NCBI GenBank assembly: GCA_051362555.1
Contig: CM120642.1
Span: forward strand, 28,086,001 to 28,150,000
DNA length: 64,000 bases
From: Lingula anatina
Lineage: Eukaryota; Animalia; Brachiopoda
Direction of reading: 5' to 3'
Shown: one piece after another, positions 2,812 through 56,409 of the stretch
Layout of the letters: the number at the start of each line of letters is the position of its first letter
How positions within the stretch are numbered: the first letter of the stretch is position 1
Program-made: the position numbers and the translations under genes
The notes under the pieces: model-generated
Database searches by the model: none
What the model was told of the DNA's origin: nothing
What the model saw: the letters and a program-made list of their open reading frames with translations, nothing else

Positions 2812-5800
2812 ATGAGGATCTTTTCTCTCGGATTTTTCACTTCGTTTGTCTTCATGGCATACCGTCAGATGAAGTCTACGGTGGAGAGTCTTCGCAGATG
2901 TTTTTGTTGCAAGCGGAAAGCCCTTGTACCTTTAATGCTGTTAATGACTGGGGCGTTGATTTACATCTTCAAATTCATGAACGGTTTTGAAAGCACATGT
3001 AAGCTTTATTCGCCATTAAAGGCATAGAAGACGAAAGAACATACAGCTTATAATTATTTATAGCCTATTAGATACATTCAGTGGAGCCAAGACCATTGAG
3101 ATAGTTGTAACATGTAAAACTTGTTTTTTTAGCTCTTAGTCAGAATTTAATCTGGTAGGATCGCCTGCAACATTCCATTGTCAGTATGTACTATTTGGCA
3201 TATTTGAAAATACTTTTTATATATATAAAGAACATTTTCAATATTGTTCATGTATTGAAAGGCTCAATTTTATGTATTTTCGTGTTACTAGTATATTATT
3301 ATATCTTTATTTCCAACTAAGCCCTATCGTCAGCAGTGGCGAAAGTTAACACAAGTGGCAATTCGGTGGCTATGAACAGGCCCGTTACGTCTGCAGAAAT
3401 CATCTACCGGAAGAATAAAAAGGGTCCTCTTTCCCAGTTTACAAAGGCAATGTCGACTGTGAGACCAGCCAATACTGGCAGCTCGAAATCTTCTACATCG
3501 ACATCCTACAAAGAGGATTCGTTAACTGCAGTTCCACAACACTTGGGCCTACATCAAAATGCGACCTCAGATTTTGTCATGGTCTGGTCGCATTATGCCG
3601 CAATTCCACAAATGTTTATGGATAAAATAGCGACCTTCCTCCAGTTAAATCCAGGGAAACGCGTTGTATTTTTATGTGGAAGCAGTGGATGTATAGATCA
3701 AATAGACGCCAAGTCGTGGAAACACGTAACAGTACTTCGTTTACTGTTATCTGAGTTAGCCCAGGGCACACCACTGGACGATTTTGTCTCTAAATCCGCC
3801 ATTTTGAAATTGCTCATGGGTCGTAAATTTATGGTAGTCGTACATGAAATAAGTGTTTTACTTGCCCTGTGGAGATTTGGTGGACTTTACATAGATATAA
3901 GAAGAATAGTGCCGTCATATTTACCAGCTGAATATTTCAAGGGACAATGGGTGTCCACTGAAGGTATCTTTTTCGTATCCAGATTCGAACAACATTCGTT
4001 GTTCGTTAAAAATGCCATGGTCGAGATTCAGTCGGCCTACAGCAGTCTCAGTAGAAGTCAAATCCAAAATTGGGACACTGCTTCAGTCTTACTGAAATCA
4101 AAAGTTCTAAGCCAGGTAGATAAGAGACAGACTGAAAAGGGCGGTACAGATTCTGTAATAACATTTTTGCAAGAAGAACTCTTTGGGATCCTAAGTTTTG
4201 ACCATCGAGTGAAGGTGGCGAGAGACATCAACGTTGGCGACGAGATTCAAACGCTAGCAGGGCTACAGTTTCTTCCCTTTGTGGACCTATTTGTGGACAG
4301 GGATACCTGGAACGTCACAAATGTAGCAAAACCGCCTGCACAGAAAAAGACTACTGACAATTTTTGGGAAGAAAACACTAGAAGAGAAAGGCATGGAAAT
4401 GCAACAAATTGGTCTTTGTACATGACCCAAAATACAGCAGGTAATGGCATACCTAAAACAAGCGATACAAAAGATCCGTTTAGAAAAGGGTCAATTGTTT
4501 CCAACGAAACCAATAATCTCAAAAAAGGAATCACAATATTTCTTAATGGATGGTATAACGCCGGCAACATGATGTGGCCACCAAAAGTTAATCTAAACCC
4601 TCTGATTTTATCGATGTATTTTGGATCAAGTTTCTGGAAGAAATTACTTACTGAGCCGGGCAGAAATTACCTTCGAAATCATGGCCCTGTGGGTGCTCGT
4701 GATGACGTCACTTTTAAGTTCTTAAAATCCCAAAATTTTTCAGTATATAAATCGGGCTGTTTGACACTTTTAATGCACAATCCCAATCCCACCATTAAAA
4801 CAGAGGATATATTTGTCGTTGATGTGAACAAAAGCGCTTTAGAATTAATTGTTCCATATCAAATACGAAAATCAGCGATAAACGTCACCCACAACTTGCC
4901 CAGTTCGAAGAAATTTGATAGATTAACACGCTACGAAGCCGCAAAAAGTTTGATGGAAAGATATTCACGTGCAAAATTAGTTATAACCTCGCGCATCCAT
5001 TGTGCCCTTCCTTGCGTTGCCATGGGAATTCCAGTAGTTTTTGTAGAAACTGACGTCCTACCTGGAGGTGGAGGGCGTCGAACTGAGGGCTTAACAGAAC
5101 TTTTTCACACAGTTACTGTCGACCTAAGGATGAAAACCTACAGAGGCCTGGACAACTTTAATTGGGACGAACCGGAAATGAATCCAAATCGTGAAATCTA
5201 CATGCGCTTTCGCGCCACCTTGTGGTATGAGATACGCAAATCTCGCGCTTTACGAGAAACGGCGATAACATTTGGGATCGCACCCTTTAAAACATTCAGG
5301 CAGTTAAACAAAAATAAAACAACTGAATCGGTATTCTTTCAAGTGTACACAACGAAGAATCAGACAAAGCGGAACCGCCGTTCACTCGAGAGTATATTTT
5401 ACCACCATCCAAATGCGAAAGTGCGCATTCTAAGCAATGCTTTGACACAAAAGGCGTTTTCTGAGTTCAATGAAGCAGGTTTTCAAGTAGAGGTCGAAAA
5501 CTATACTCTTGAAAACTTACTAAGGCACATTGAAAATCTGGAACCAGACACCTTTGCGGGTCGCTCGAAAGCGTTTTTGAAAAGAATGCCTGTTATTTCA
5601 AAAGGACCATACTGGTATAGCCACGAAACTGACTTGATAAGGTTGTTACTGTTATATCTGTACGGTGGCATTTACATGGACACTGACATCATTTTAGTAA
5701 AGAGTTTAAAAGTTTTGAATAATGTTACTGCATGGGAAGACAGAAAAAATTCCGTGTTAAATGGCGCTGTTGTAAAATTTGATAAGCACAATCCATTTCT

Positions 5801-6167
5801 CCGTGAGTGTATTAAAGAATACCTCCTTAACTATAAGCAGAACGATTGGGCGGCAAATGGACCGCATCTTCTCACCCGCGTGGCGAGAAAACATAGCACG
5901 TGGGTGTGTGACGTCAACAGTTTTGAGGATGTATCGAAAGGCAAGCCATGCATAGTCAGACGTATGTATCGGCAATCGTTTTATCCTATTGAGTGGCCTA
6001 ATGTTACACGAGAATGTTTCCTTGATAAAGGCAGAGTAAACGAAGAGTCCTTTTCTGTGCATCTATATAACAAATTATCGAAAGCGTATGGGGACGCTAC
6101 CAAGCCTGGGACGCTCTGCCGTTACCTTCTGAACATTTTTTGCATTTTCTGTGGAGACTTTGTTTAA
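2812..6167 (+). CDS. Type II membrane multidomain glycosyltransferase: degenerate GT32 + polysaccharide pyruvyltransferase-like + GT32 (A4GALT/A4GNT-like), ~1000 aa, 2 exons
   Basis: Exon 1 is 2812 (or in-frame ATG 2854)..2998, with TM segment ALVPLMLLMTGALIYIFKFM and donor GTAAGC at 2999 (phase 1). Phase-compatible acceptors give exon 2 starts at 3322, 3334 or 3337, reading into the 943-aa ORF ending at 6167. Motifs: ALWRFGGLYIDI; NVGDEIQ, GPVGARD, SGCLTL, VITSRIHCALPCVAMGIPV; TDLIRLLLLYLYGGIYMDTD, NGPHLLTRV, FYPIEW, VHLYNK. Confidence 0.85.
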
Positions 6168-10938: not shown

Positions 10939-11139
10939 CCGTGTCTTTGTGTATTACCGGTCCATTGTACATGTTTAAATAGTCCCTGGAACTGTTGGGA
11001 GAGAGTAACCATTTCAATTCAAATTAAAATACAGTGTAACACAAAAAAAATTCTGTAAACTGATTAAACCATTCTTTATTTATTCAGGTTAGCAATCACA
11101 AAGAACTGTGTTCGGGCACGTGATATTCACTCCAAAGAG

Positions 11140-14100
11140 ATGGCTGACTCAGAGCAAGTGCAGTGTCAATTTTGTAAAGGAACGTACAAAAAGAGAGGTC
11201 TGGCAAATCATCAACGATCCTGCAAACAAAAACCGCAGGACATAAAACCTGGTGAGGACAGCGAGTTGCCATCAGGCAAAGTTTCCTCTACAGAAAAATG
11301 TGATCAAGAACAATCAGAAACAATACAATGTGAATATTGCGGCAGAACATACAAGAAAAGGGGTCTGGCAACTCATCAACGGTCTTGTAAACAAAAGCCA
11401 CAGGATTCAAAAGAGCAGCGTGAAAGCAGCGAGTTGCAATCAAGCAAAGTTCCTCCTGTAGCAAACCCTAAACAAGAACAATCAAACACGCTGCAGTGTC
11501 AATTTTGCGGTGGAACATATAAGAAAAAAGGACTTGCGACTCACCAACGAGCATGTAAACAGAAGCATATGGACCACGGGGAAGACAGTGGAATTGGAAC
11601 CATCAGAAGTGTTTTGTCTGAAACGGTGACTGACCCGGTGCAAGCAGGAACACTGCTTGGGCGTCTTTGCAACGAGACACAGAAAACTGAACTAGAACCA
11701 CATATGTGGGACTTTAAACAAAACCCAGGGAATATGGCAAGCTGTCCTTTTTGCTGTTGGGAGTTTGCCCACCAAGATTTACCGACACACGTGCAACGTT
11801 GCAAACAAAATCGGAGCAGACTACAGTCGGATTCGCAAACTGGTGAGGTAATTTCTGAAAATCAGAAGATCTCTCCACCGTTACATGAGAAATTGCTGAG
11901 CACATCGAAGTCATATAACCATAAGCGTGGTGGTGCTGCCAAGGCGAATGGAGGTAATTTCTTTTCGTCCTTTACACTATACACTTTCAATGAAAACAGT
12001 AAAAAGGTCCCTTATGTTTTGCTATGTTATAGATATAGCTGTCTTTTTTAGAACCCAAAATTGGAGAGATTTTAACATTTTGTTTTATAGCTTAATAAAA
12101 ATCATTATTTCAATGTAAATTAGTCACAGTCATAGAATTATCGGTCATCATTGATTGATCCAACTCCCCTGAACTTTTGCTGAATTCGATCAGATTAACA
12201 CGCCTCCTGTTGTTTCTTACGTGCTCTTATAATCACTAGCAGCTCTGTATTACACTCAACACCAGGAGGAGGTGTGTGAGTCTATTTAATATGGATCTAA
12301 GGGGGCATTCCCATAGATTTTAGATCGATCTATCCACGTGGGGAGTCTCACTAGATTACTGTCAGATAATCCGGCCTAAATGTCCGTCCCGCCTACTTTA
12401 AGCTGTAAGGGGGTAATTAACTTTCGTGCCCGCTCGGCTAAGAGCTATTTAGCGTGAACCCCAAGGGAGTTAGGTCGATCTAGTTGGATCGATCTAATCT
12501 CTAGGAATGGGGTCTGAGTAGAACGATAATTTCATTGGGAATGAGCCCTAACTTAGTGTTGGTATTTCTCAATATAAAACACGATTGCTTATATATTGTC
12601 CAGTACGTTTTTGAACACGAACCCATGTTTACTATTTCAGCGACTAAAGACGAGTTGTTACTCCTCAAAAAATTCCTGATCACCCCTCAAGGTGGCTATG
12701 CCTCGCTTCCACAGCACGGGGTATCCATTGTGGTCCCAGAGGGGGCAATCACTGAGAAAAGTAAAGAACTGTTTATCGGCATCAGCAATAGGAAGGAAGA
12801 TCGCCCAGTCCTTCCTACTGGCCAGTCAAGAACTAGCCCAATCATCGTGTGCGGGCCTCACGGCACGCATTTCAAAAAGCACGTGCTCCTCAGTTTTCCG
12901 CACAATGTACCAAATGTTGATAACGCAGTTGTAAAGCTCTGGCAATCGCAGACAGATCTGAACCAACAATGCAAATGGGAAGAAGCCGATGCCCGAACGT
13001 GTGTTAACTTCACACCGACAAGATGCTTGCTCTCTTTGAATCATTTTACAAAACACACAACCTCTTGCAGCCAAAAGCGTGTACTTGCAGCTGCGTTCGG
13101 TGACTACGATTGCGACACTGCTAAGCTCTCTCTTAACGTCCACTGCGTAGATGACATGCCTACTGCTCTAAAGGTAGGCCTACATATAGATATTCGGTTT
13201 ATTGTTATTTTTTGTATACGCTCTGTTTGCAATTGTTATTGTTATAGCTTTCAGAGTTAATGTTATTCTCTCCTAAAATTATGGAACCTTTATACTCACC
13301 AACTAGGAAAAACCACGTTTAATTGAAACGATAACAGAAAAAGTTGGGTTAATAAATCTGTTAGATATAAAGTTAGAACAGCGATTTCATTAATATTCAT
13401 AATCTATTACTACCCTGTATGGCAGGAGCTGAATGAACAGATGGCAGAGTTGAACATGCATCGCCTGGCACCAGATGGCAGGTTTGTGTTTCACTCATGC
13501 GTATGCCGCGAGGATGAGGAGCGAGATGTCAAGGTCGCATTGCTGGACCTTGGAAAAAAGTGGAGAGTGATCTCGCCAGGGGGCGCAACTGGTGGTGGCA
13601 CACCTCAGGTATACAGTTTTCTGCAGTCAATTGACCTGGAGCATGGTGGACATATACTCCCTCCCACCATCTCGCTCAAATCCTTATTGTCGAGAATATA
13701 TCTGTCTTATTACATAAAAATAGTAAAATTTCTTCTCTTTTAATAAACAGACTCAGATCTAGCCGTAGTCGTTAACGCCGTCTCCCTGCAATTTCAGTGT
13801 TATACAAATAAAATGAAAACCGTTTTACCTTTTGTCTGTTGGTGCTGTTGTTATATGTAGGCCTATATTCGGTAGCTTTGCTGTCTTGTTTAATGCATTT
13901 ATCCAAGTCATTAATTTAAGTTGCCCCCAGTACTTTTCGTCTTTGTGCTACGGAATCGACGGGTGACTGCTCGGCAAATCAAAAAACATTTTTTTGTAAT
14001 TAATTACATGAAAATACTGCATCTTGATTTTTCAGATGACTTACCTCGATATATTGCAAAACAACTTGCAGGCGTATCACAACAATTTAACTTGGATCCC

Positions 14101-16341
14101 TTTAATGTACATGCTGCATATATGTATTAATCTCGCTTTTTCAGATAATTTACTTCGACGAATTGCAAAACAACTTGCAGCCATATCGCAATTACGTTCT
14201 CAAGCCACATGGAAAGGACCCTGTCCGTGACCTTCACTGTGACATCGACGTCCGTCAGGAGAACCAAGATCCAAAATCATCAAGCGCCAAAATTCTCGTT
14301 AGGAAGTCCATGTCACAGGTATAATGATCTGCATTTTTGGGCTATTATTTATTCTTTTTATTGTGGACCACGTTCATGAACGATCGAGGAACATGTATGG
14401 AATATGAATCTACCAGTACCTACAATGTACATGAATTTCCTCAAAGACGCAGAATATTTATTTTAAGTTCTATTAAAAGCTCTTAGAATTATTTACCCAT
14501 TTTATACTTACAAGGATGCCCTACAGGCTAGTAATCTCACCTCTCTGAGGGAGAGAAGAGATGTTTCATTTAAGAACTTTTTTTACAAAAATCAAGAATT
14601 TTAGTAAGTTACACCATCTGTTTAAAGAAAAGAATCCAAGAAATCTAAGGGTCAGCAACAAATTTTTAATACCAAGAGTGAAAACGGAGGGTATTAAATT
14701 TTAAATTGAAAATTTTAAATTTCATGTAAAATACTGCTCCAAACTGTCTTATAAGTCTTGTTTTTAGCTTTGGTCTTTTACATTGTAACTTATAATTTTT
14801 AGTTACCTTTAAATACCTTATGATTTAATATATGATATATTGTAAAACTTCAACCCTTTAGTTGCGATTATAGCAAATAAATAAATAAATCATTATTAAA
14901 ATACGACTGAATTATCAAAATTTTAAAGGCTTGCTGTCATACATACATCTTTTGGCATATTTACAGATCGTCAAATTCAATACCCCAAGAAGCTCGTCGT
15001 CTGTACAGTTTGAGATCGGCACAGGCACACTAAAATCGGACTTGCATCCAATGCGCTTTTTGTCTCCGAAAGAGCGGACTTCTCTTAACGAAGCTGTCAA
15101 AACCCCAAAGATATGGCGTATTATTGCCGCCGACATTGGGCTGGATGGAACCGCAGAAAGAAAAGGAGTGGATTTGGAGCCTTGTGCTTTGGTCTTTTTT
15201 GCAGTGGGTGAATCGTTTCTGGAAATGCTGAAATTGTTTAGAAGGGTCGAGCGAAAAGCACATGTTAAAATGCAGAAAAGTTTGGACATTATTTATGTAA
15301 GTATACACAATGTGGATTTGTTTTCAGTATGTGCAGGATGCAGTACCTTGTCGTCGTGTGCGTGAACACGCATGTATGTTTGTGTTTGTGGGTTTGTTTT
15401 TGTTTGTGTGTGTGTGGGGGGGGGTGGTGTTTGTGTGTGTTGTGAATGCATGTATAAACAATAGCTGTGTTGTAGAAAGTCTGGGTCATACAGAATATAC
15501 TGAAAGAAACTGAGGTTAATTCTTAGCGAGGTAAAATGTTGAATACCGACCAATAAAGTCTTGACCCGAAAATAAAATGAACACGTCGATGACAGAAAAT
15601 CAAAGAGATTGTTAGTATAAGTAAATGAACTGAAAATCATAAAGTGTACTTAAGTTTAAAAATTGAAAATAAAAAAGCAATTTTCCTTTTAAACGACGAT
15701 TTAAACTGTTCACAGAATTGTGCTCCATAAAGTAGTATTTGAGCTCTAAGTTTCAAAGAGAAATTCGCAAGTCTCTGTCTCCAATGCGATTGACTCGAAT
15801 CTCAAAAACTATAAATTTAATAACAGATTTATGGGCCGTCATTCTGTGAACGGTTTAAGATATGTGGTATATGCCCTTGTGATGAAAAGAAAATAGTATA
15901 TATTTCATGCAAAATTCAAACTTTGCTGCATGAAGACGTTACATTCATTGTCTTCCTTTATTTGTGTACGTCTAAGAGAGACTAATATTATAATAATACT
16001 TTATTTATTTTAATCGACAGAATGCCCGCATCCTAGAAGCAAGCTACGAGAAGTTGAAACGTCACACCCCTGAAATTATAAACAGCGTTGACCCTAAGGA
16101 CGTATATATACAGCTTTTTGCTGATGGGATATTGACATTCTACGACAAAGACGAGATAGAAAAGGCTTGTACAAGATCCACTGTCAATGGGTGCTCCATT
16201 TTACTGAATAAAATCTTTCTTTGTCCAGTGGAGAAAACCCCGATTCCCAAGCTGTGCAATGCGCTGCGCGAACAGAACTGTAAAAGAATGGCAGACCTCC
16301 TCGAGTTGTCGTTAGATGACATTGAACCAAAAGAGACTTGA
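11140..16341 (+). CDS. Zinc finger (4x C2HC)-ZU5-UPA-like-death domain-CARD protein, ~784 aa (copy A)
   Basis: Exons 11140-11953, 12641-13173, 13426-13608, 14145-14318, 14967-15296 and 16021-16341 are all GT-AG and phase-consistent (1,0,0,0,0). C-x2-C-x11-H-x3-C fingers; ZU5 motifs ITPQGG, GVSIVVPEGAI, SPIIVCGPHG.HFKKHVLLSFPH, LNHFT; UPA-like LHCDIDVRQ; DD-like WRIIAADIGL; CARD-like LKRHTPEIINSVDPKDVYIQLFADGILT. Confidence 0.8.
12300..12513. mobile_element. MITE family 2 (GATCGATC-rich, internally palindromic)
   Basis: Termini GGGGCATTCCCATAGA / TCTCTAGGAATGGGGTC; near-colinear with 28188-28401. Confidence 0.7.
15702..15858. mobile_element. Short TIR element in the last intron of copy A (counterpart at ~22294-22434 in copy B)
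   Basis: TTAAACTGTTCACAGAAT / ATTCTGTGAACGGTTTAA; present in both paralogs, so it predates the duplication. Confidence 0.6.
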
Positions 16342-20092: not shown

Positions 20093-20300
20093 GGGGGGGG
20101 GGGGGTAATGACGCTATAGCTAGGTGACAACAACTTAAGTTATTTCCATGTCTCCGTGAACTCTAGGGAGAGAGAGATGTAATTTTAATTCAAATTGAAA
20201 TAACTTGATAAATATGTCTAATGATTATACTATTCTTCATTTTTTCAGGTTAGCAATCACAAAGAACTGTGTTCGGGCACATGATATTCACTCCAAAGAG

Positions 20301-22905
20301 ATGGCTGACTCAGAGCAAGTGCAGTGTCAATTTTGTAAAGGAACGTACAAAAAGAGAGGTCTGGCAAATCATCAACGATCCTGCAAACAAAAACCGCAGG
20401 ACGTAAAACCTGGTCAGAGCAGCGGGTTGTCACCAGGTAAAGTTTCTCCTGCAGAAAAAAGTGATAAAAAACAATCAGAAACAGTGCAATGTGAATATTG
20501 CGGTAGAGCATTCAAGAAAGGGGGTCTGGCGACACATCATCGGTCTTGTGAACAAAAGCCACAGATTTCAAAACAGCAGCGCAAAAGCAGCGATTTGCAA
20601 GCAAGCAATATTCTTCCTGTAGCAACCTCTGAACAAAAACAAGAACAATCATACACCCGGCAGTGCCAATATTGTGGTGGCACATATACGAGAAAAGGAC
20701 TTGCGACGCACCAACGAGCATGTAAACAAAAGCATGTGGATCACGGGGAAGATAGTGAAACTTTAACCGGCGGCAGTGTTTTCTCTGAAACAGTGACTGG
20801 CCCGGTGCAAGCATATAATGCACTTGCAACCTCTGAACAAGAACAAGAACAATCAAACACCCGGCAGTGCCAATATTGCAGTGGCACATATACGAGAAAA
20901 GGACTTGCGACGCACCAACGAGCATGTAAACAAAAGCATGGGGAAGACAGTGAAACTTCAACCGGCAGCAGTGTTTTCTCTGAAACAGTGACTGGCCCGG
21001 TGCAAGCATATAATACACTTGCAACCTCTGAACAAGAACAAGAACAATCAAACACCCGGCAGTGCCAATATTGTGGTGGCACATATACGAGAAAAGGACT
21101 TGCGACGCACCAACGAGCATGTAAACAAAAGCACGGGGAAGACAGTGAAACTTCAACCGGCGGCAGTGTTTTCTCTGAAACACCTGGTGGTCATCGTTGC
21201 TATGAGGGACAGAAAAGTGGACTAGGATTAGGCAGCAGAAAGTCCATGTCACAGGTATAAAATATTTGTTTTTGGATAATTATTGTTTTTTCTTTTAATT
21301 ATTGAAATGAACGTGACTAGGAACGCGGAACATGTATGGAATATAGATTCACCAATATCTATTTATATGGTCTGTTTATATTTGCCAATGGCTATTTGTA
21401 CTTAAAGGAGGTCAAACTATAAATTTTGTGCACCAGATGTAGCATCATGATTTTTTTATTATTAATAAATAATGTACAACATTTGAGATGTTTACATCTC
21501 AACCTCAGGCGAATGTTTTGCAATGACCTTCCAATCAAGTAGTCTCATTTGTACATACGTAAATTAAATTTCATCACAGACAGGGGTTTATTTATTTAAT
21601 CGTTCTTGAAATACACTTAAATTAGCAACATATCATAAAATATTTGTTTTGGCTAATTTACAGATCGTCAAAAACAATAACCCAGGAAGCTCGTCGTCAA
21701 TTCCGTCTGAGATCGGCTCAGGTGCACTAAATACGGACTTGCCTCCAATACGCTTTTTGTCTCCGAAAGATCGGACTTTTCTTAACAAAGAGATCAAAAG
21801 CCCAAACATATGGCCTGTTATTGCCGCTGACATTAGATGGGATGGAAGCGCTGAAAGAAAGCGGGAGCCGTGTGACGTGGTCTTATCTGCAGTGGGTGAC
21901 TCCTTTCTGGAAATGCTGGAATTATTTAGAAGGGTCGAGGCCAGAGCGCATGTTGACATGAAAAAAAGTTTGGAGATTATTTCTGTAAGTATGAGCAATA
22001 TGGATGTGTTTGCAGTATGTATATAAACCTTGTCATTGTGTCCGTGACCATGCGATTGTGCCAGTTGTGCGTGTATGTGTTGGTGTGTGTTTACGTTTTG
22101 TGCGAGAGTGTGTGTGTGTATGTATGTGTGTTTGTGGTGTTGTGGATGTATGTGAAGTGGTATAATAAGTCTGGAATTTTACATTTTACACCGAATATAC
22201 AGAGAAAAACTGAGGCACATTCTTAGCCATGTATAATGTAAAATACTGAGGAAACTTAAGCAATTTTCCTTTCAAGCCAAGATATACGCAATCTAAAACC
22301 ATTCACAGAAGGATCCAATATGAGCTCCAAATGTTGGAGTGCAATTCACAATAAGTTTTCATCTCCATTATGACTGACTCAAAACTCAAATACTAGAAAC
22401 AGGTTCAAGGACCGTAATTCTGTGAACTGTTTTACATATATAATGTACCCTAAGCTTGTGATTAAAAGATAATCCTAAACGTTTCCTGAAAATTGAAATT
22501 TTGCTGCATGAAGACCTAACATTCATTGCCTGTCGTTATTTATCTACTTCTAACAGATAGTCACGATAGCAAGGCTATTTTACCAATATAAATTAATATT
22601 TTATTTTTAATTGACAGAATGCCCGCATCCTAGAAGCAAGGTACGAGAAGTTGAAACGTCACATCCCTGAAATTGTAAACAGCGTTGACCCTAAGGACGT
22701 ATATATACAGCTTTATGCTGATGGGATATTGACATTCCACGACAAAGACGAGATAGAAAGAGCTTGTACAAAGTCCATGCGGGATGGATGCACCATTTTA
22801 CTGAATAAAATCTCTCTTTGTCCTGTGGAGAAAGACCCGATAACCAAGCTGTGCAATGCTTTGCGCGACCAGAACTGTAAAAGAATGGCAGACCTCCTTG
22901 AGTAG
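20301..22905 (+). CDS. Paralog (copy B): 5x C2HC zinc finger-death domain-CARD, lacking ZU5/UPA, ~520 aa
   Basis: Exons 20301-21254, 21664-21984 and 22618-22905 are all phase 0 with an open frame. The N-terminus MADSEQVQCQFCKGTYKKRGLANHQRSC is identical to copy A. The DD and CARD exons are highly similar to 14967-15296 and 16021-16341. The stop TAG replaces copy A's TTG. Confidence 0.75.
20622..21182 (+). repeat. Coding tandem repeat (204/195-nt units), one C2HC finger per unit
   Basis: GCAACCTCTGAACAA starts at 20622, 20826 and 21021; the translations are near-identical (ATSEQEQEQSNTRQCQYC..TYTRKGLATHQRACKQKH). Confidence 0.95.
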
Positions 22906-24510: not shown

Positions 24511-26386
24511 TGAAGTTTTGCCATAACACAGTTTGTGTGACCTCGAACCAAGGTGAACCATTTCCTCACCTTATCCAGCTGCCCTAAAAAAAGGAGTTGT
24601 TTTTCAAATCAGATGAACCGCAAGGACCCTGTTTTTCAAAACAGTTACTAATGAGTGTCACGGACAATGTCACTGGGAGGTCTTTCCATAGCTACCATGA
24701 AGGAAACTGTACCCACAAAAATCGATATATCACACGTAATGAACAACCACAAAAATATATGATAACACAGTTTACAAATGTCATTTCACATGATAAGAAT
24801 GTGCATTCAAAAATGTACGAGACTCGTACAAGTACGTAGTGATAAATGCTGGGAAGTCTCGCTTGGTGACTATCTCTTCAAATATTTCTGCTGCAGCCAA
24901 AAGTCTGTGCCTAGAGGGCTCAGAGTTGAAATCAAAGTGAGGGCTGAGCATGGTTTGTTGTACTAATTTCCCAATAGCCTCCTGAACCAGGTGTCTTGTC
25001 ACTTTGACAGTGGTGCCCTCTATATAAGCCTGATGTTTGATCCACTGCCAAACCTGATGAAACAAGGCAAAATGTTATCCAACTACTCAATTGCCAAGAT
25101 AAATGACAAGAAAATTAAATCCAAATTAATAAAACAAATTCATAGTTTCTGATCATAGTATCTTTTAAACTTTTCTGCAATGAAAATATTGCTGTCTTGA
25201 ATAATTTCTTTAGCCTAGCTGTAACAAAATGCAACATATTTTAAAAAAACCATAAACATGACCGTTTTACCTTTTGGAATGCACTAAGCTGAGCATCATT
25301 ATTCTGAATCTTAAAATGCACAGAAATTATCATTATGGAAATTCTAAACACTGATAGGACCCATGCTTTCTCTTACCTGTGAGCGTGAAATTTCTGCTGT
25401 GGCTGAATCTTCCACACACCCTTTATAATAGAAATGCCCTTTTCCTCGAAGCCATGCTTCAATAAAGAGTACACCTACGCCGATGTTGTGCAGAAGACCT
25501 TCTTCTGTTACTCCACCCTGTTGGAAAACAACTAAATCTTTAAATAATCAGATAAAATGGCTCGCGTGGTCAGAAATTTTAAGTACACACTGGACTTTGA
25601 TTTTTGAATTATTCACTACTTACTTTTCAAGAAAATGCCCTTTTTAACAACAGTTTACTGCATTTCACGTTACTTTTCAATTTTTTTAATCATTTATAAT
25701 TTCAATTTTGAAGTCATTAAGTAGTGCAATAGCTAATTCCATTTGAATTATAACATGCCTTTCCAGCACAAAGAGGAATACCGTATGTATACTTGGAGAA
25801 TACAAAGTTAATACTACTTGTAAAGACTGACCCAGCCACAAAATCAAGTTATAAAATTCATTCAAACAAAGTTCAACAAAAGTTGAGATATTTATCAATT
25901 TTGTCATGCATGAATTAAAAAAAAAATACTGATTGTTTTCCTTTCCAGGAGCTGTGTTGTAAGGCCACCCACAGATGCATTTTGCCATTGTGTTAGGTGT
26001 GACAGCTCAACCAACACATCTATACTCTAAACTGGTGAATGTTGTATGGCCTTGGATGTATTTTTGCATGAAAAAATGAATGATGCTGTTCAGGTGGCAC
26101 ATATTTTTTAAAAATATCTTTAAAAAGATCATTTCTTAATTATTGAAGTTCTGCCATAATGCAGTTTGTGTGACCTCCAACCAAGGTGAACCATTTCCTG
26201 GCCTTATCCAGCTGCCCTAAAGAAAGGAGTTGTTTTTCAAATCAGATGAACCGCAAGGACCCTGTTTTTCAAAACAGTTACTAATGAGTGTCACAGACAA
26301 TGTGACTGGGAGGTCTTTCCATAGCTACCAAGAAGGAAACTGTACCCACATAAATCGATATATCATACGTAATGAACAACCACAAA
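24511..26386. repeat. ~243-bp near-identical direct repeat (24511-24753 and 26144-26386)
   Basis: Both copies give the same spurious ORF start [18 protein letters not shown]; only a few substitutions differ. Confidence 0.92.
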
Positions 26387-45300: not shown

Positions 45301-48011
45301 TTTTCCTGTGGTCCTACAATCTGTAAGCCATATTCATACAGGACAACTACTAGTAGTTAAATTTATTCTGTTTGTTGCTGGTACTAGTATACATATTATT
45401 GCTTTAGTAGAGGAAGATAAAGGTTTCATATCTTGACTTCCAAGTATCTTAGTATGATGCCAGATCCCAACCCTTGTGTTAAGTAAATAAATGTTACATC
45501 CGTTTAAAACTTGATTGATTTACACCTAACTGTAAGAAGCCAGTAATGATGGGATTTTGTTTTTGTGACAATTTGCTAAACACCTCTGATTGTTAAGTCT
45601 GAAAAAGGCCCATGGCATTATATATCACAGAACCTGGGATGTTTGAGAGTCTAGCAGCAGCAAAAACTACTGATAGAAGTAACTACTTATAGAACTACTT
45701 AACTACTTATAGAAGTATGCTCACAATTAAAAAAATGTAAAGGTTCTATACAAAAGCAAATTCTCTTTAACTAATATCGTAATTAAATGATGACCTCACT
45801 GTAAGTTGAAAAAAATTAGGTGACTTATAATATATTGTAATATATTGTAATATTGTTGGGTTAATTAAATTTCAGGGGTGCAAATCACAGAGAATTTAAC
45901 TAGTAAGTCACTGCAAAACTCTGTAAGACTTCTAAATCAATTTCTGAAATAACAGTCCATATACTATCGTGAGCATGAAGTGCATCACAAATTACCACAA
46001 AGCCCTCATCCCTAGGCCTTATAGTGCCCAAGTCTGCTTACATAATGATTCGATATTCTGATACCTGAATTCCCTGGGCAGTGGAGCGTAGTGCTTTGAC
46101 AAAATGCTCTGTGTTGGAAGGAGAAACATCCCCTAGATCAACATGCCGGCACTGCAGACGCCGTGGTACTGGCTTCACTTTCCAGTCAGCCTGGCGAATG
46201 CTAGCAGAATCTGGGTGGAAATCGGGAAGAGCTCCTGTTTGATCGAGTTGCACTTTTCTAATGAGTCTTCTTTGGTGCAACTAAAGAACCAACAAATAAC
46301 GGAACATGACACAAAAATTGAGAATGAAACTTTCAACATGGAGATTGCACAAGGAATATATTTGCAATTTACAAATTATTTACTGTAGTAGAGTGATATA
46401 CAAACCATTAAACTGAACTTGACAGCTGTTAGGTCCTTGCAAATGTTTTTGTCAACCCTTTGTAATTTATTTTTGCTTATCGACATGACTGTCCATTTCA
46501 ATATATTCTGTTACTGTGTCTCTGCAAACTCATCCACTCATCATGAAAATATATTTGAAATATGTTTTTTGTGTGTGTGTGTGATTTTACCTGGTGCACA
46601 TCTCTGTCAAATGTTCTACATAGGTCAGCAAGAAAAATCACTGCCTCTGGAGTCAGCAGAGTCCTGAAGTGCTCCTCATAGCCCACAGGTGGTGCTTCAA
46701 CTTCGACATCTTTTACCCCAAGCTAAAATGTAAAAGCATCAAAAAAGCTTAATTTAAACATGTATCTATGAAATGAAATGCTATATAACTTTTATTTACG
46801 AATAGAAATATTTACTTTATCAGAGACATTACATTGGAGTTTTTTTTTTTTTATTATTTCTGATGTCTGACTTCTTATTGAATATCACATGTCTTAAATG
46901 CTTGTAATATCTCTTTTGTGAAATAACATTTCACTCCCATGTGTAGGAAAGAAACTGACCTTTCACTCACTCTCAGAATAAAACAACTTAAAAGTGCATA
47001 TTCAACATAACAATTATTTCTCCTGTTTGGAACTTGATCTAGTCATAAGCCAAGTGAAGAAAAGAGTAGGCATAAATCACATACACGTATACATTTGTGA
47101 AGATGAGAGATAAGTGATGGAGATCTTTTCACACAGAGATGAGTGAACGATTAATTTTTACTAGTACTGAGGTACCTTGGCGGTATTGATAAATGATCAT
47201 CTTTCAGACTCAAGCACAGCAGTAAATCTTTTTTTTTTATGTAAAAAGAAGGCAGTTTTAGTATCTGATCAACTGGGTTAATCCAAGAGCAAACAGGTTA
47301 GGGCTAATCTGGGCCCCATATCCCAAAAACATTGCGCACTGCGACCATGGCAAGCGTCTCGATTCCACAACTCGCCTATACTCTCCCCACATAATACATT
47401 GTAGCCTCTATGTGATATCGCTATTCACAATACGCGATGCTTTCCTGACACTGGGCCCTGCTCTCCATTGGCAGCAAAAAGCCTTTGCCTTACAAAAGTG
47501 TGGGTCATGTTAACATCAGACAAATAAGCTAAGAGCTCTGTCACACCTCCAATCAATTCCAAGACTATTTTGGCCATAAATTCCTCTAATTTCTTAATTC
47601 CCTCTATCCCAAAATTACTCTATATGTTATAATACTGTACATGTGTTCAGCCAAAACAAACATGAATGATGCCAAAAAAATGTAACTACATGTTCAGCTT
47701 AGCTGTTTAACTTATACCATATGACTAATGTATGCAGGTCCCAGCTACTGGCACTGTAAAGTCACAGTATGGAATTACGTGACCGAAGTGATCAGCAACT
47801 CAGTATTAAATAAATAACGAGTTGTCCTTGCTGGAATGCTGGTCTTGACATTATGCATACAGTGAATACATACTCGTTCTAGTTCCTTCATCAGATTCTT
47901 CCGATCATCAACATTTGTATTTGCTGCTCCTTTAAGTGCAATCTTGCTACTTCTAAAATTACTAAGAGCAGGAGAAAGAAAATGTGACTTATAAACTTCC
48001 AACCTGTTCAT
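24781..48011 (-). CDS. Malate synthase A-type enzyme, ~586 aa, 13 coding exons
   Basis: Exons (high to low): 48011-47874, 46722-46591, 46280-46065, 37830-37740, 35000-34924, 34458-34348, 33795-33736, 33278-33122, 31116-30924, 29869-29791, 27239-27147, 25517-25377, 25053-24781; phases are consistent. Motifs: [92 protein letters not shown]. Confidence 0.93.
28188..28401. mobile_element. MITE family 2 copy (malate synthase intron)
   Basis: TTTTAGATCGATCTATC..GGGGAGTCTCACTAGATTACTGTCAGATAATCC is shared with 12300-12513. Confidence 0.7.
33874..34042. mobile_element. Non-autonomous DNA transposon with a 5-bp TSD
   Basis: TIRs CAGGGGCGGATCTAG / CTAAATCCGCCCCTG flanked by GCTTA at 33869-33873 and 34043-34047. 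Confidence 0.8.
36060..36337 (+). mobile_element. Degraded 3' fragment of a non-LTR retrotransposon with a (TAAA)n tail
   Basis: YCSEIWG followed by [27 protein letters not shown] resembles the post-RT region of invertebrate LINEs; it ends in a TAAA microsatellite. Confidence 0.6.
41600..41997. repeat. ~200-bp tandem duplication in the large malate synthase intron
   Basis: ACTTAATTTAAAACTC.TTAGTAAAAGTTTA..TAAGTTGGTTTT occurs twice, head to tail. Confidence 0.9.
43871..44410. mobile_element. Two abutting TIR elements (43871-44073 and 44074-44410)
   Basis: TTGTATAAAGGTGG..CTAAACACAAT / ATTGTGTTTAG..CCACCTTTTATACAA; CAGACATGCTGAAACT / AGTTTTCAGCATGTCTG. Confidence 0.7.
47311..47458. mobile_element. 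MITE family 1, second copy (in malate synthase intron)
   Basis: GGGCCCC...GGGCCC termini with a CTG duplication; the interior aligns with 1768-1914. Confidence 0.7.
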
Positions 48012-48269
48012 TTTGTTTTTATGTGCTGCAGTTATGTACCTCCTGACACAAAAGAAAAGGACAGGCTACATGTCACAGTCGGATTGAATGTGGCTCTCTT
48101 GGATCACGCTCGGCCGTCACCTTGAGATCAAAAGAAATCTTTATACTAACATATTAGTCAACCATATCAAAAAGAAAAAAAAAATTAAAGCCTGCCTTTT
48201 AAAAGTATTTTTAAACGAATTTCATGAAAAGAAATAAAAATTTATAAAAAAAAAATTTTAAAAATAAAA

Positions 48270-48306
<37 letters not shown>

Positions 48307-48490
48307 AAAATTGACATATTTTCGCCTTTCTGATTTTGGCATTGAAAGTGGGATATTAATGCATTTTCAGGTAATAGAAAAAATAAGCAATAGGCCAATT
48401 TTGTTACTTTTTAGTCTAACACATCTTTTGCGATATTGATATTGATGGCCAGTAAAACAATGACGAATCCCGTAGGGCTAAAGATGCAAG

Positions 48491-48540
48491 AACACACCAA
48501 GACATTTCTCTCAAGTTTATTTTCCCATCTTTCTTTTATT
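48491..48540 (-). terminator. Probable poly(A) signal of USP38
   Basis: Minus-strand AATAAA at 48535-48540 and 48516-48521, followed by GU-rich TTGGTGTGTT (48491-48500). Confidence 0.5.
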
Positions 48541-49747
48541 TGATTTTGAAAATTAAAACAGTCATATGTTACTGAAAAAAAAAAAAAAAAACACTAGCAA
48601 TTTGTAAGTGAATGTCTTGTCAATTATTATATGATATAATTTTAAGTTTTCTTTTTCAACAACTTATCAACACTTAAATCTAATTTTTACACATGATTTG
48701 GAACTGTTTAAATTGATATACTGGTATCTGGTATGTAACACCAGCCAGAAATGTTTCAGTGATTTAAGTCCAAGTTATTGTTGAGCATTGTTGGTGCAGA
48801 AAGATATGCAAATACTGTTAACACTGTCATAACAAAATCTGTTAACCATAATAACATTATGACGTGCACTGTCTAAGTGAACAAGTATATACCAAAGATA
48901 AAAAAAAAAAAAAAAGAACCAGACACAATAATAACTGCAATGGAAATGAACTACAGAGATTAAATTATAATATTAAGCAATTTTTATCAATATTAATCTT
49001 TAATAATGAATACGATGTGTGAAGTAATCAAACACAACTACAGTAATTAATCACAGTTATCAAAGACAAGTATCAAGTCCATAAAATTTTTAGTGCCAAT
49101 AACACTAACAGTCTATTGTACAAGTAGAATCTATATCAAGGGGAGGCACTTCTATTACGAAAAAAAATGCAATACAATGAATGGAAACAATTACTTGTTT
49201 TCAGGGTACGTTTACAGAAATGAAGCCAAAACAGAGGTAGAGCTTAAGTACAGTTATAAGAACCCTCCACAAATAGGTCAAATCTAATTACTTGTCTGTG
49301 TAAAAGAAAGATTACATTGATTGCCCTCACTTATTGTATTAGTTCTTAATGTATTTTCTCAAAATCCAAACAGTCACATCTTCATGAATCTATAAGAAAA
49401 CAATCCTTCAGTTAGAGTGTACTTCAAATGTTAAGCACCGCTTATAAAAGCATGATAAAACTTCATGCATCTAAACGACACAGAAAAAATTAGAGAATTA
49501 AATAACAATACATGCAGCAGTTTAGAGAAATAACAAACACAATTTCTCTTTATAATGTATCAACTTTACTACATGACATGTACTACTGTAAGGATCTGTT
49601 ATGTACCCATAAATAATTGATATACAGGTCTAACCATTTTTTAGATTCTGTAGAATCAAGTGAGTTTTTGCTTATCCATAATAGGAATCTACTCTGACTA
49701 TCATATATATTATGCACTTGAAGATGAACAACTGTCCAATCAAATGT

Positions 49748-52700
49748 CTAATAGACAAATCTTGACCCTGAGAGATCTATTCCACCAAACCCACCTCCTC
49801 CCCCACCCCCACCACCCCCTGGACCACAACTCCCAGGGGGTCCCCCCTTGTCGTCAAAATCACTCCATCGATTCCAACTTCGTGCTGGGGACGTGCTAAG
49901 GCTTCTACGAACTGCTTGACTCCGCGCTTCCAATTCCTGCTCCTGAAAATGACAAAAAATATATTATGTATATATATGTATTAAAATATATTATCATAAA
50001 ATATATTTTATTTTTTCAAAACCTTGGTTCAAAATCTCATAGTCAAAAACCGATGGAATTTAATATCATTATCATATCAATAAGAATTATAGTTTAATGA
50101 ACTAATATTTTCAGTTAGATGGGTTGAAGTTTCGGTAAATTACTGACCTGCAAGTACTTAGCATTATCCTGTATCACAGCATCTCTGAGATCTTTCCTGA
50201 GAGGGGGGTCTACCACAGCTGGGTTGATGCTATCATCTAGGTTCAGAATGCTGTCATCAGAAGATATTTTCTTGTAGATCAGGACATAGGCTGTGTCACG
50301 GGAAAATCTTTTTGTCACATTACTGTAAAAAGAAAAATACATTGAGGCAAAAAGCAAAAGCAGGTTCTATCTGAAATAGCGGAAATGATGGAGAATAATT
50401 AGTTCAAAATACATGGGAGGTTATCAAAAAAAAAAGGAAAGAAAAGAAATGTTTTTATAACTAATGATAAGAAAGCAGGGTTTGTCTTACAATAATATTT
50501 TTGTAAAACAACTGCAAAATGCAAAATAAAAACAAAAGTTGGCATAGTCTTGGTTTTTTTTATAACTGACATACAAATGCTTTCAAGATAAAACCATTGA
50601 CTTGAACTGTCACTGGTACATGTTTGTCAGTGTGTTAGAAAAATATATCAAATTAACAAAGCACTTAACACGGTTCTTCCGCTCTAAGCTACCCCTCATT
50701 GAACCTATACTAGTATAATATTTGTCTCAGCTGAAAAAAAATGTTTGGCCGAATCATTCAATTAATACAAAAAGATTGTTTACTTTGAAAAATATTTTTT
50801 GAAAATTTTCTTACTAATTTTTCTATGAAATTTATTCAACAAATTAGCACAAAACAGCATTAAGCTCCTAACCTGAAGGAGTCAAAAGAAGCATAAGTTA
50901 CTCTGCTGTCATTGAACAAGTACCACTTGTCCTGCAAGTAGTCCTGGTCATCACACCTATTCCCGGTCTCCTGGTCAGTCTCCTGGTCAGTCTCCATTCT
51001 GTCCACCAGGCAAGTGACTGGTAGGGAGTGACGGGCATAGCAGTAGTAGTGGCCACATTCACTCGATGCACCTGAGTGTATAACTACTCCACAGAGTGCA
51101 TAAGTGGCCAGAGCAGTCGAATCGTCAAAACCCGAATCTGTTGTCGTCTGCTGTGCAAATGCATGCTGGGGCTTATCAAGTACAGCATAATCGTGGGTTC
51201 GTTGATCAAACTTGAGCGGGGATTGCACTGGATCATCGGTGGTAAATTTCACTTTCAGTTCATCTCTGTGAACAGGTAACATTAAAGTCTTAGGATAGCT
51301 CACCTCATTGAAAAGTTTTGAGCGCGACTGAGTCTTGATGTTGTAAGAGAATCTTAACAAAGTCAGAATTAGAAAGTTTGGGGAGTGAACAATTTTAATA
51401 GACCTTTCCCCATCTTGCAGACCCTGGCACTTGTCACAATAGTACTTATTATCACCTTCCAGCTTTTCTGGCTCAAGATAATAGTCCAGCAGATTTTCCA
51501 ATGTCAAAGAGTCATTTCCGCCATCCTTGTTATCAAGACCTGCAGAGCTTCTACTTAATGTATCTAAACCTTCCAATTTTGATTCTTTGACTTGAGCTGC
51601 ATCCATTTTTGTCTCCCCTGTTTCATGCTCTACTTTCCCCACTGTGTTCCCCTCCTGTTCCATTTCAACATTCTTTTCAGCTGGAGTCGATTTACCTCCT
51701 ACAAGGGAGGAGCCATGGCTTGATATCTTATTTCCATCAGGAAAAGCTAACGGCAAATCAAAGAAGGACTCTGTTCTTGCCGACTCATGTCCACATGTTA
51801 AACACCTACAGGTGGTCATCACTTTCCCACCAAAAGTTTGTCCAACCAGTGTTGGATCCACATCGTCTTTAGTTTCGATGACAATCTCTCTCTGATGCTG
51901 CTGCCCTCTAGTGGATTGTTCCTGTTGAGCAGAGCGCAGTTTTGATTTGTAGAAGTTTGGTTCCACACTGTGTTCTGGTGAGGACATGGGGCTGGGGAGT
52001 TTAACAGGGGATGTAGGATTCCGTTTTCTGCGTAGAGCGGTGAGTTCTTGTTCATGAAGCTGGTCTAGTAAATAATGGAGGAATTCAGCACAGTCCTGTT
52101 GATGTCCAGGTATAAACCATGGGGGCCTGGATACCTTCAAGAAGGAGGTCGGAGAAAAGGCAGCTCTCTACATAAATAAAAAGATGACAGTTTTTCCTTT
52201 TTATTGCATGCATATATATATATATATATATCTCAATGATTTTTTTAATATGTTAATCTACATAGACTGAGATCAAAAATAGACTCATCTAACTATCACA
52301 TTTCAAGCATTACTATATGATCGTGGCCACCAATATTTAGGAGATTTACACTTAAATTTTTCTTCTAACCATAATAAATACAGCCTTTACATAAAACCTT
52401 CTAATCCAAAATTTAATTTTAAATATACAAACATGTAACCATAATTTGAGATCTTTTCATACCTGAGAATGGCCCAGGAAAGCTGCTAAATACTGCATTT
52501 TGACCAATAGAGGGCAGTGTGGATCTGCTGGGGAACTCAACAAAGCTTGACGGAACCTTAAAATAACAATTTACCTTGCCTCAAATACTGAAGTCAAACA
52601 AGACATAACAAAACTATACTCTAAATCTAAAATCTTAATGCAATGTACTGAAACAATACAAGATGATATATGAATAAAAAAAAGCAATTATATGAAAAAC

Positions 52701-55700: not shown

Positions 55701-55763
55701 TAAGGCCCTCTTCAGAGGTTCTGGTTTGTCGGAGGCAAGCACACCTCTTAATATCTGTTCCAT
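49748..55763 (-). CDS. USP38: Ubiquitin carboxyl-terminal hydrolase 35/38 ortholog, ~1052 aa, 8 coding exons
   Basis: Exons 55763-54819, 54372-54271, 53793-53635, 53114-52921, 52556-52463, 52167-50873, 50322-50148, 49942-49748. Cys box GLVNLGNTCYMNSVIQAL, QQDCAEFL, His box HSGASSECGHYY, WYLFNDSRV, TAYVLIY. The N-terminus MEQILRGVL and the Gly-rich C-terminus ending RFVY resemble USP35/38. Confidence 0.92.
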
Positions 55764-56409
55764 TGTGATTTCCTAGAAGTAACAAGAAAGAGTAAAAATT
55801 GAAGTACTTCTTCCAAGTAATAAGAAAATGAGAAATACTGAATGAATGAATTAACAGTATTTATTTAACAGGACGGTGGGGGAGGGGGGGCTCCCCCCCC
55901 CCTCCCCACTCACCCACCCGTTAAATAAAACTGTTAATTCATACATACAGGATGAAGCAACAGAATTTGGAATATTCATGTCAAGTTTACATGTAAGCTT
56001 CTATCATAACGTTTAAATGTTTTAATTGAACTCATTAAAGGTAACCGAAATCTTATTTTCGCACATCGATCACTGACTCAGAGTCAAACCAAATCGTAGC
56101 TTTCTATCACAAAAACTGGGTATCTTAGACTTTTTACAATTATGATCAGAACAAAAAAAAAAATAATAATAATTCTTCAATTCCAAACAATTATATCGAC
56201 TGACACTTGAAGGGATTTGTTCGACCGACCAGCGTGACATCAGGAGATTTTACTTTATTTCGGAAAGCCTACAGGCTACATTCAGCTCAATGTAATGCAG
56301 TTCAACCCAACGCTACCATCATCCTGGTTAACCTCGAGATGATATTATTAGAAATTTTATTATTAGAAATTTGGCTTGAGTGGGTAATTTTGATGTTTTT
56401 ACTACTCAC

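What the first reader, a model, noticed from the sequence alone, without database searches (positions are those of the whole stretch)
2812..6167. Animal Golgi-type protein fusing GT32 domains with a bacterial-style pyruvyltransferase-like domain
Seen: a TM anchor, then GT32-like (~3570-4100), pyruvyltransferase-like (~4200-5280) and GT32 with an intact DTD (~5330-6167), all on one 2.8-kb exon while neighbouring genes are intron-rich. Known: the N.GD.IQ / GxRD / SGCLTL / TSRIHCALPC.A.GIP motif set is typical of bacterial polysaccharide pyruvyltransferase-family proteins. Pyruvylated glycans have been reported in sponge aggregation factor and Aplysia glycolipids, and I know of no identified animal enzyme for them. 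Inference: a candidate bifunctional sugar-adding and pyruvylating enzyme, possibly with a horizontally acquired domain.
Basis: partly seen in the sequence, partly recalled or inferred. Interest (0 to 1): 0.8.

Follow-up and report, generated by a model that had tools for sequence, protein, structure and literature searches.

The report
Animal sugar-pyruvylating Golgi enzyme family
This brachiopod-type gene encodes a membrane-anchored protein whose middle domain has the predicted fold and the active-site motifs of enzymes that cap sugars with pyruvate; its sponge, cnidarian and sea-star relatives have a transporter fused in front that likely imports the pyruvate donor, so the family is a likely source of the pyruvylated sugars known from sponges, for which I found no enzyme described.

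Summary
The gene is real. A short exon carries a type II anchor; one 2.85-kb exon carries a DxD-less GT32-like domain, a PF04230 pyruvyltransferase domain and an intact GT32 domain. The middle domain's model matches S. pombe Pvg1p (Z 14.2) and Klebsiella WbbZ (Z 13.3) best of 48,161 chains, and keeps NxGD, RxxxT and RxH. Closest relatives are Lingula paralogs. New clue: 97 of 195 multi-domain relatives (sponge, cnidarians, sea stars, an amoebozoan) carry a fused N-terminal TPT-family transporter, recalling yeast's Pet1/Pvg1 PEP-import-plus-transfer pair. Pyruvyltransferase motifs are far better conserved than GT32 motifs, so pyruvylation is the likely core function; the sugar-adding step is optional. 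Against: no activity shown, no pyruvylated glycan found reported from brachiopods, sparse RNA with no splice junction, and the fused transporter lacks the plant PEP-type Asn. I found no paper describing the family.

The parts
2854..2998 (+). First coding exon: short basic/Cys-rich cytosolic tail and type II transmembrane anchor (helix about 2923-2979); start at ATG 2854 or 2869
   Evidence: Kyte-Doolittle 19-residue window 1.97; 74% identity to the N-terminus of Lingula paralog P0158
2999..3321 (+). Predicted phase-1 GT-AG intron (alternative in-frame acceptors 3333, 3336)
   Evidence: Sequence; in-frame join giving 986-991 aa from ATG 2869; not seen in reads
3322..6167 (+). Single large exon with stem and the three luminal domains, to the stop codon
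   Evidence: ORF 3321-6167; AlphaFold model of 869 residues, pLDDT 87.8, pTM 0.88
3570..4142 (+). Degenerate GT32-like domain; DxD replaced by D-I-R at 3894-3902; likely non-catalytic
   Evidence: HHalign to the C-terminal domain, probability 98.2; DxD in 5 of 177 relatives
4167..5300 (+). GT-B-fold ketal-pyruvyltransferase-like domain: NVGD 4230-4241, RDDVT 4698-4712, RIH 4992-5000; low-confidence insert 4341-4502
   Evidence: PF04230 E 1.3e-14; Z 14.2 to Pvg1p and 13.3 to WbbZ; coordinates
5322..6155 (+). GT32 (alpha-1,4-glycosyltransferase-type) GT-A domain with intact D-L-I-R and DTD (5679-5687)
   Evidence: PF04488 E 4.3e-15, PF04572 E 1.8e-20; GT-A matches Z 13-15 including Och1 13.9

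Best explanation
The gene encodes a predicted type II Golgi membrane protein whose middle domain likely transfers pyruvate from phosphoenolpyruvate (PEP) onto a terminal sugar, probably galactose, of glycoproteins or glycolipids as an acidic ketal cap. Shown: domain order, fold likeness, motifs, distribution. Inferred: Golgi location, donor, acceptor. In the sponge, cnidarian, sea-star and amoebozoan relatives a ten-helix TPT-family antiporter is fused in front, followed by one more hydrophobic helix that would put the catalytic domains in the lumen; it would import PEP in exchange for the phosphate the reaction releases, joining in one chain what fission yeast does with Pet1p/Pet2p and Pvg1p. 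The Lingula-type copies have only the anchor and would need a separate PEP carrier. The first GT32-like domain is likely a non-catalytic scaffold or acceptor-binding module. The last GT32 domain may still add an alpha-linked sugar in this copy but has decayed in over half of the family.
For: Pfam PF04230 above cut-off. Model of the domain (pLDDT 85.6): top two of 48,161 chains are the two validated pyruvyltransferases Pvg1p (Z 14.2, rmsd 4.3, 249 aligned) and WbbZ 6x1l (Z 13.3, rmsd 4.4, 213 aligned), next 9.9; same two lead Foldseek. The family motifs NxGD, RxxxS/T and H named in PMC10629545 (passages) are all present. D-R-R kept in 58 of 64 covered rows of alignment A1 and H in 65 of 65; D,R,R,H in 137 of 195 multi-domain proteins, gaps counted as misses, against DxD in 5 of 177 (first GT32) and 76 of 148 (last GT32). 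TPT fused in 97 of 195, named in Halichondria, Xenia, Patiria, Acanthaster, Asterias, Hydractinia and Balamuthia. Its only clear PDB sequence match is the plastid phosphate translocator 5y78 (E 1.1e-16); the phosphate-binding K204/Y339/K362/R363 of that protein (bioRxiv 10.1101/169169, passages) are all kept in 57 of 91 covered rows; 80 of 97 have a further hydrophobic stretch before the luminal domains (no control). Yeast Pvg1p needs Golgi PEP transporters (PMC4872226). Pyruvylated galactose is known from sponge glyconectin and Aplysia glycolipids.
Against: No activity was measured. Sequence likeness to Pvg1p is weak (E 0.043 to 2.2, only the RxH stretch aligned), and the D and first R equivalences rest on motif match, not a residue-level superposition. 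The nearest single-domain relatives (30-35%) are annotated by family only. I found no report of pyruvylated glycans in brachiopods, cnidarians or sea stars (and the reviews), and no mollusc name appeared among named hits although Aplysia has such glycans (most hits are unnamed; only 30 were looked up). The fused transporter keeps Phe at position 263 in 79 of 97, which in plants disfavours PEP (PPT has Asn), and the phosphate quartet is not PEP-specific. The window's protein has no transporter. RNA support is thin: reads on the ORF in 4 of 6 RNA runs, 20 and 7 reads in the two counted cleanly, none at 99% identity in those two.
Confidence: 0.7

Rival explanations
1. Obligate two-step enzyme: the C-terminal GT32 adds an alpha-linked sugar and the middle domain pyruvylates that new sugar. 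This is a narrower form of the best explanation.
For: This copy and Lingula P0004 keep D-x-x-R, DxD, GP and the C-terminal His; 21 of 61 covered rows of A1 keep D-R-DxD, spread over animal and diatom-like branches. A GT32-like gene lies directly downstream of the single-domain gene in 14 of 168 prokaryotic/viral loci (no control), and bacterial GT32-pyruvyltransferase fusions exist.
Against: The named Halichondria, Xenia, Patiria and Acanthaster proteins have lost GT32 catalytic residues while keeping the pyruvyltransferase ones; 41 of 183 multi-domain rows lack the C-terminal GT32 (some are fragments) and several carry GT8 instead. Known animal pyruvate caps sit on beta-galactose, which a retaining GT32 does not make (established family knowledge, recalled).
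Confidence: 0.3
2. The middle domain has the pyruvyltransferase fold but does other chemistry, such as an ether-linked carboxyalkyl group or removal of pyruvate, with another phosphorylated donor brought in by the transporter.
For: No close relative has a tested activity; rmsd to Pvg1p is 4.3 at 14% identity; the transporter pocket looks more triose-phosphate-like than PEP-like at position 263. Earlier scan notes propose other chemistry for other PF04230-like groups (untested leads).
Against: All PEP- and acceptor-contacting motifs of the validated enzymes are kept; triose-phosphate translocators still carry PEP weakly (Ki 8.3 mM).
Confidence: 0.12
3. This particular copy is a decaying duplicate in a multi-copy family and makes little or no working enzyme.
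For: DNA runs hold many related contigs at 85-100% identity, some with frameshifting indels; 3 of 4 named Lingula paralog models are truncated; RNA reads are sparse and none matched at 99% in two runs; 15 of 28 listed coding differences change the amino acid.
Against: The 948-codon frame, splice signals and all catalytic motifs are intact; 13 of 28 differences are synonymous against 22-28% expected (p about 0.02; only 40 of 646 rows were shown, so this is a selected subset).
Confidence: 0.12
4. A recent bacterial gene or an assembly contaminant sitting in an animal scaffold.
For: Large intron-free exon; many bacterial single-domain relatives.
Against: Best hits are Lingula paralogs at 58-66%; the stretch is held by DNA runs of one organism from 4 studies; GC3 0.41 matches neighbours 0.35-0.46; spliceosomal intron and animal neighbours; the family is one eukaryotic clade.
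Confidence: 0.02

Closest known systems
Schizosaccharomyces pombe Pvg1p with Pet1p/Pet2p (PDB 5AX7; PMC4872226)
   Same: Type II Golgi topology, GT-B pyruvyltransferase fold (Z 14.2), NxGD/R/RxH motifs, need for luminal PEP.
   Different: 14% structural identity and barely detectable sequence likeness; Pvg1p is single-domain and its PEP transporters are separate genes, whereas this family carries two GT32-type domains and in about half of the members a fused transporter.
Klebsiella WbbZ (PDB 6X1L), Paenibacillus CsaB, Bacteroides WcfO (PF04230 ketal-pyruvyltransferases)
   Same: Fold (WbbZ Z 13.3) and the three conserved motifs.
   Different: Cytoplasmic single-domain bacterial enzymes on lipid-linked glycans; TIGR03609 CsaB scores only 11.7 bits against a cut-off of 213.
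GT32 alpha-1,4-glycosyltransferases (A4GALT/Gb3 synthase, A4GNT, plant alpha-1,4-GTs, Och1)
   Same: PF04488 plus PF04572 and DxD in the C-terminal domain; Och1 Z 13.9; plant alpha-1,4-GT clusters nearest in the Atlas for the Lingula paralog.
   Different: Fused to a pyruvyltransferase, duplicated with a dead copy, and often degenerate. No tree with animal A4GALT/A4GNT was built.
Plastid phosphate translocators / SLC35-type TPT family (GsTPT2, PDB 5Y78) - relatives only
   Same: PF03151, phosphate-binding K/Y/K/R kept in 57 of 91.
   Different: Fused to luminal enzymes; His185 mostly Asn (58 of 97); absent from the window's own protein.

Membership tests
PF04230 ketal-pyruvyltransferases | Pfam score above curated cut-off | tested here: met
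   55.2 bits against 25.3
PF04230 ketal-pyruvyltransferases | GT-B fold closest to Pvg1p/WbbZ | tested here: met
   Z 14.2 and 13.3, next row 9.9, on a predicted model
PF04230 ketal-pyruvyltransferases | NxGD, RxxxS/T and RxH motifs | tested here: met
   NVGD, RDDVT, RIH; definition from PMC10629545; RxH aligned to Pvg1p directly, the other two by motif
PF04230 ketal-pyruvyltransferases | PEP-dependent ketal formation on a sugar | not testable with these tools
   Needs an enzyme assay
CsaB equivalog (TIGR03609) | Score above cut-off | tested here: not met
   11.7 bits against 213.1
GT32 alpha-1,4-glycosyltransferase (C-terminal domain) | PF04488 and PF04572 with DxD, GT-A fold | tested here: met
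GT32 alpha-1,4-glycosyltransferase (C-terminal domain) | Sugar transfer from a nucleotide sugar | not testable with these tools
   Needs an enzyme assay
GT32 (N-terminal domain) | Homology to GT32 | tested here: met
   HHalign probability 98.2 to the C-terminal domain; no Pfam hit
GT32 (N-terminal domain) | Metal-binding DxD | tested here: not met
   D-I-R here; DxD in 5 of 177
Plant PEP/phosphate translocator (PPT) subtype, for the relatives' transporter | Asn in place of Phe262/263 | tested here: not met
   Phe in 79 of 97, Asn in none (criterion)
TPT/pPT-type phosphate antiporters, for the relatives' transporter | K204, Y339, K362, R363 phosphate site | tested here: met
   Each kept in 75-80 of 97, all four in 57 of 91 covered; numbering mapped through
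Type II Golgi glycan-modifying enzyme | Golgi localisation | not testable with these tools
   Only the anchor and 14 N-glycosylation sequons are seen

The most novel reading that the evidence does not exclude
This family is the missing glycan-pyruvylation machine of animals and many protists: one polypeptide that imports PEP into the Golgi and caps glycans with it (in some members also adding a sugar), including the enzyme behind the pyruvylated adhesion epitope of sponge aggregation factor; pyruvate capping is then an unrecognised sialic-acid-like modification in cnidarians, sea stars and brachiopods, and Lingula got its transporter-less version separately, from a protist.
Probability: 0.4. 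Interest if true: 0.88.

Novelty: new variant of a known kind. Interest (0 to 1): 0.75.

Why it matters
Pyruvylated galactose is the epitope of an adhesion-blocking antibody on sponge aggregation factor and occurs on Aplysia nerve glycolipids, yet the reviews I read name only bacterial enzymes and yeast Pvg1p. This family gives named sponge, cnidarian, echinoderm and brachiopod genes that can be assayed, predicts the modification in phyla where I found no report of it, and shows a natural fusion of a donor transporter with its luminal transferase.

Tried and rejected
No whole genome was held, so copy number and a separate PEP carrier could not be searched. phmmer against PDB with the single protein gave nothing significant; profile searches reached Pvg1p only weakly. 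Foldseek on the whole model listed only GT-A folds; the domain model was needed. The N-terminal domain was not folded alone, so it has no structural test. Atlas search of the transporter part gave only generic nucleotide-sugar/TPT clusters, so its origin (plastid-type or SLC35E-type) is open; no tree of it was built. Viral scan with the single protein found nothing; with the alignment, 13 loci, none sister to the eukaryotic clade among the 8 placed: no viral donor. No RNA holder was listed by index, and no junction read was seen. Ten literature searches found no paper on an animal pyruvyltransferase or this fusion; subscription journals are largely outside that library, and the 2019 network analysis kept only 250-600 aa proteins, which excludes this family. 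The Pet1p paper was not held; that Pet1p is TPT-like is recalled. Earlier scan findings held nothing on this family by sequence, words or place. No complex prediction was run. No supplements were read; the alignment in the PMC10629545 supplement bears on the motif mapping.

Full report
Observation. The window has an open frame at 3321-6167 (948 aa). Pfam finds PS_pyruv_trans (residues 367-578, E 1.3e-14), Gly_transf_sug (684-800) and Gb3_synth (820-944), all above cut-off. The region 84-274 has no Pfam hit but is homologous to the C-terminal GT32 domain (HHalign on family alignments, probability 98.2), with D-I-R where DxD belongs. The anchor lies on a separate exon ending at 2998; joining it to any of three in-frame acceptors gives 986-991 aa from ATG 2869. 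The closest paralog model, Lingula anatina LOC112042473 (P0158, 75% over residues 2-385), starts at the equivalent of ATG 2854 and has the same join.

Is it a real animal gene? The best hits are three Lingula anatina paralogs (58-66%). DNA runs of one organism from 4 studies hold the stretch, as hundreds of short contigs at 85-100% identity, some with frameshifts: a multi-copy family with some dead copies. GC3 (0.41) matches neighbouring exons. RNA reads fall on the ORF in 4 of 6 runs laid, at very low depth, and in the two runs none is 99% identical; no junction was seen. Transcription of the family is thus weakly supported and of this copy not shown. Of 28 coding differences among the 40 rows shown (646 in all), 13 are synonymous against 22-28% expected, mild purifying selection on a selected subset.

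The middle domain. AlphaFold models are confident (whole luminal part pLDDT 87.8; domain 85.6). Among 48,161 solved chains the domain's best matches are Pvg1p (Z 14.2) and 6x1l (Z 13.3), then generic GT-B folds at 9.9 and below. 6x1l is Klebsiella WbbZ, a validated pyruvyltransferase; that paper names NxGD, RxxxS/T and H as the conserved motifs and places Pvg1p D106, R217, R337 on them (PMC10629545, passages; CsaB equivalents in PMC10435577, passages; Pvg1p data in PMC4872226, first of five parts). The window has NVGD, RDDVT and RIH. Sequence profiles reach Pvg1p only weakly and align only the RxH stretch, so the other two equivalences are by motif.

The family. A word-indexed search gave 68 relatives of similar length; an exhaustive profile search listed 150 best hits, all at E below 1e-93. 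With my own domain profiles, 325 proteins had a domain of 200 residues or more: 142 single-domain, 83 transporter-GT32like-pyruvyltransferase-GT32, 48 without transporter, 32 without transporter and last GT32, 10, 9 and 1 in other forms. Named members: Halichondria panicea, Xenia, Patiria, Acanthaster, Asterias, Hydractinia, Balamuthia, the foraminiferan Bolivina; a diatom-like contig (L094, judged by its neighbours). Most rows are unnamed; 30 were looked up. Counts are of related sequences, not independent events. Pyruvyltransferase residues are kept in 137 of 195 multi-domain proteins (gaps counted as misses), the last GT32's four residues in 57 of 148, the first GT32's DxD in 5 of 177. Function therefore most likely centres on the middle domain.

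The transporter clue. 97 of 195 carry an N-terminal PF03151 domain. Its PDB match is the red-algal triose-phosphate/phosphate translocator, whose phosphate ligands K204, Y339, K362, R363 (bioRxiv 10.1101/169169, passages) are each kept in 75-80 of 97. 80 of 97 have a further hydrophobic stretch after it, as needed to place the enzymes in the lumen (no control). Fission yeast uses Golgi PEP transporters Pet1p/Pet2p to feed Pvg1p; that these are TPT-like is recalled. One relative has a UAA-family transporter instead (P0331). Against a PEP-specific reading: Phe263 is kept in 79 of 97, whereas plant PEP translocators have Asn. The window's own protein lacks the transporter, like all four Lingula models.

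Origin. In a tree of 53 rows with prokaryotic and viral domains, 20 of 21 fused eukaryotic rows form one clade (100/98); the 21st, P0323, is weakly placed; no donor stands out. Bacterial GT32-pyruvyltransferase fusions exist but the one tested is not sister to the clade. Within it, Lingula copies sit with Bolivina and Balamuthia (99/97 on 791 columns, 35 rows, LG+G4; 96 SH-aLRT under a mixture model, quick tree), and the other animals form their own group in each single-domain tree. Holding 9 named animal rows together against 3 protist rows is rejected at p-AU 0.032; the test was run after seeing the tree and long branches are present, so this is moderate. Rows for these trees were picked by hand from the 325. 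Either ancient paralogy with many losses or a protist-to-brachiopod transfer fits; a bacterial domain inserted into an animal GT32 does not. Many relatives are single long ORFs on genomic contigs, but gene callers for such data see only intron-free genes, so this is partly a sampling effect.

Mechanism. Inferred: PEP enters the Golgi against phosphate; the GT-B cleft binds PEP through the two arginines and histidine while the aspartate of NxGD engages the acceptor hydroxyl; a ketal forms on a terminal sugar, probably galactose, and phosphate leaves. The dead GT32 domain likely scaffolds or holds acceptor; the intact one may add an alpha-sugar, either as the substrate or as an alternative cap on the same galactose 4-OH (inference from recalled GT32 chemistry).

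Known or new. Pyruvylated glycans are described from Microciona glyconectin and Aplysia glycolipids (PMC6801904 and PMC6994554, passages; PMC7828597, passages and section 3.1.1). Ten searches found no paper on an animal enzyme or this architecture. I did not see a Microciona/Clathria or Aplysia member, and found no pyruvylation report for brachiopods. Verdict: a member of PF04230 by every test available here, in an undescribed eukaryotic multi-domain form; new variant of a known kind, interest 0.75.

Noticed in passing
window 11068-16341 and 20199-22905 (+): Two similar tandem gene copies with C2HC zinc-finger repeats, ZU5 (first copy) and a CARD-like end: looks like an immune/apoptosis adaptor duplication.
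   Followed up: partly
window 24781-25074 (-): Malate synthase C-terminal exon (PF20659, E 5.8e-7): a glyoxylate-cycle gene in an animal scaffold.
   Followed up: partly
window 47775-55772 (-): USP38-like deubiquitinase gene in several exons.
   Followed up: partly
window about 1770-1914 and 2281-2470: Short dispersed repeats that draw many partly matching RNA reads; probably mobile-element remnants upstream of the gene.
   Followed up: no
L097 3730-7479: Family member with transporter, three luminal domains and an extra C-terminal SAM methyltransferase-like domain.
   Followed up: partly
L097 12468-14444 and 9871-11214: A second transporter-like ORF (45.8 bits to my TPT profile; no Pfam hit) whose C-terminal half has NxG and RG motifs reminiscent of another pyruvyltransferase group, and an ORF that recalls a Polinton-like-virus capsid (recalled resemblance, no Pfam hit).
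   Followed up: no
Proteins P0290, P0298, P0310, P0313, P0067, P0066, P0331: Swapped partners: GT8 before or after the core, GT2/GT7 fusion, and a UAA-family transporter fusion.
   Followed up: partly
L002, L003, L010, L011, L012: Giant-virus (GVMAG) contigs carry relatives of this pyruvyltransferase subfamily, outside the eukaryotic clade.
   Followed up: partly
L174 3092-4771: Sphingobium plasmid protein annotated only as capsular polysaccharide synthesis protein is a GT32-pyruvyltransferase fusion with an intact DxD.
   Followed up: yes
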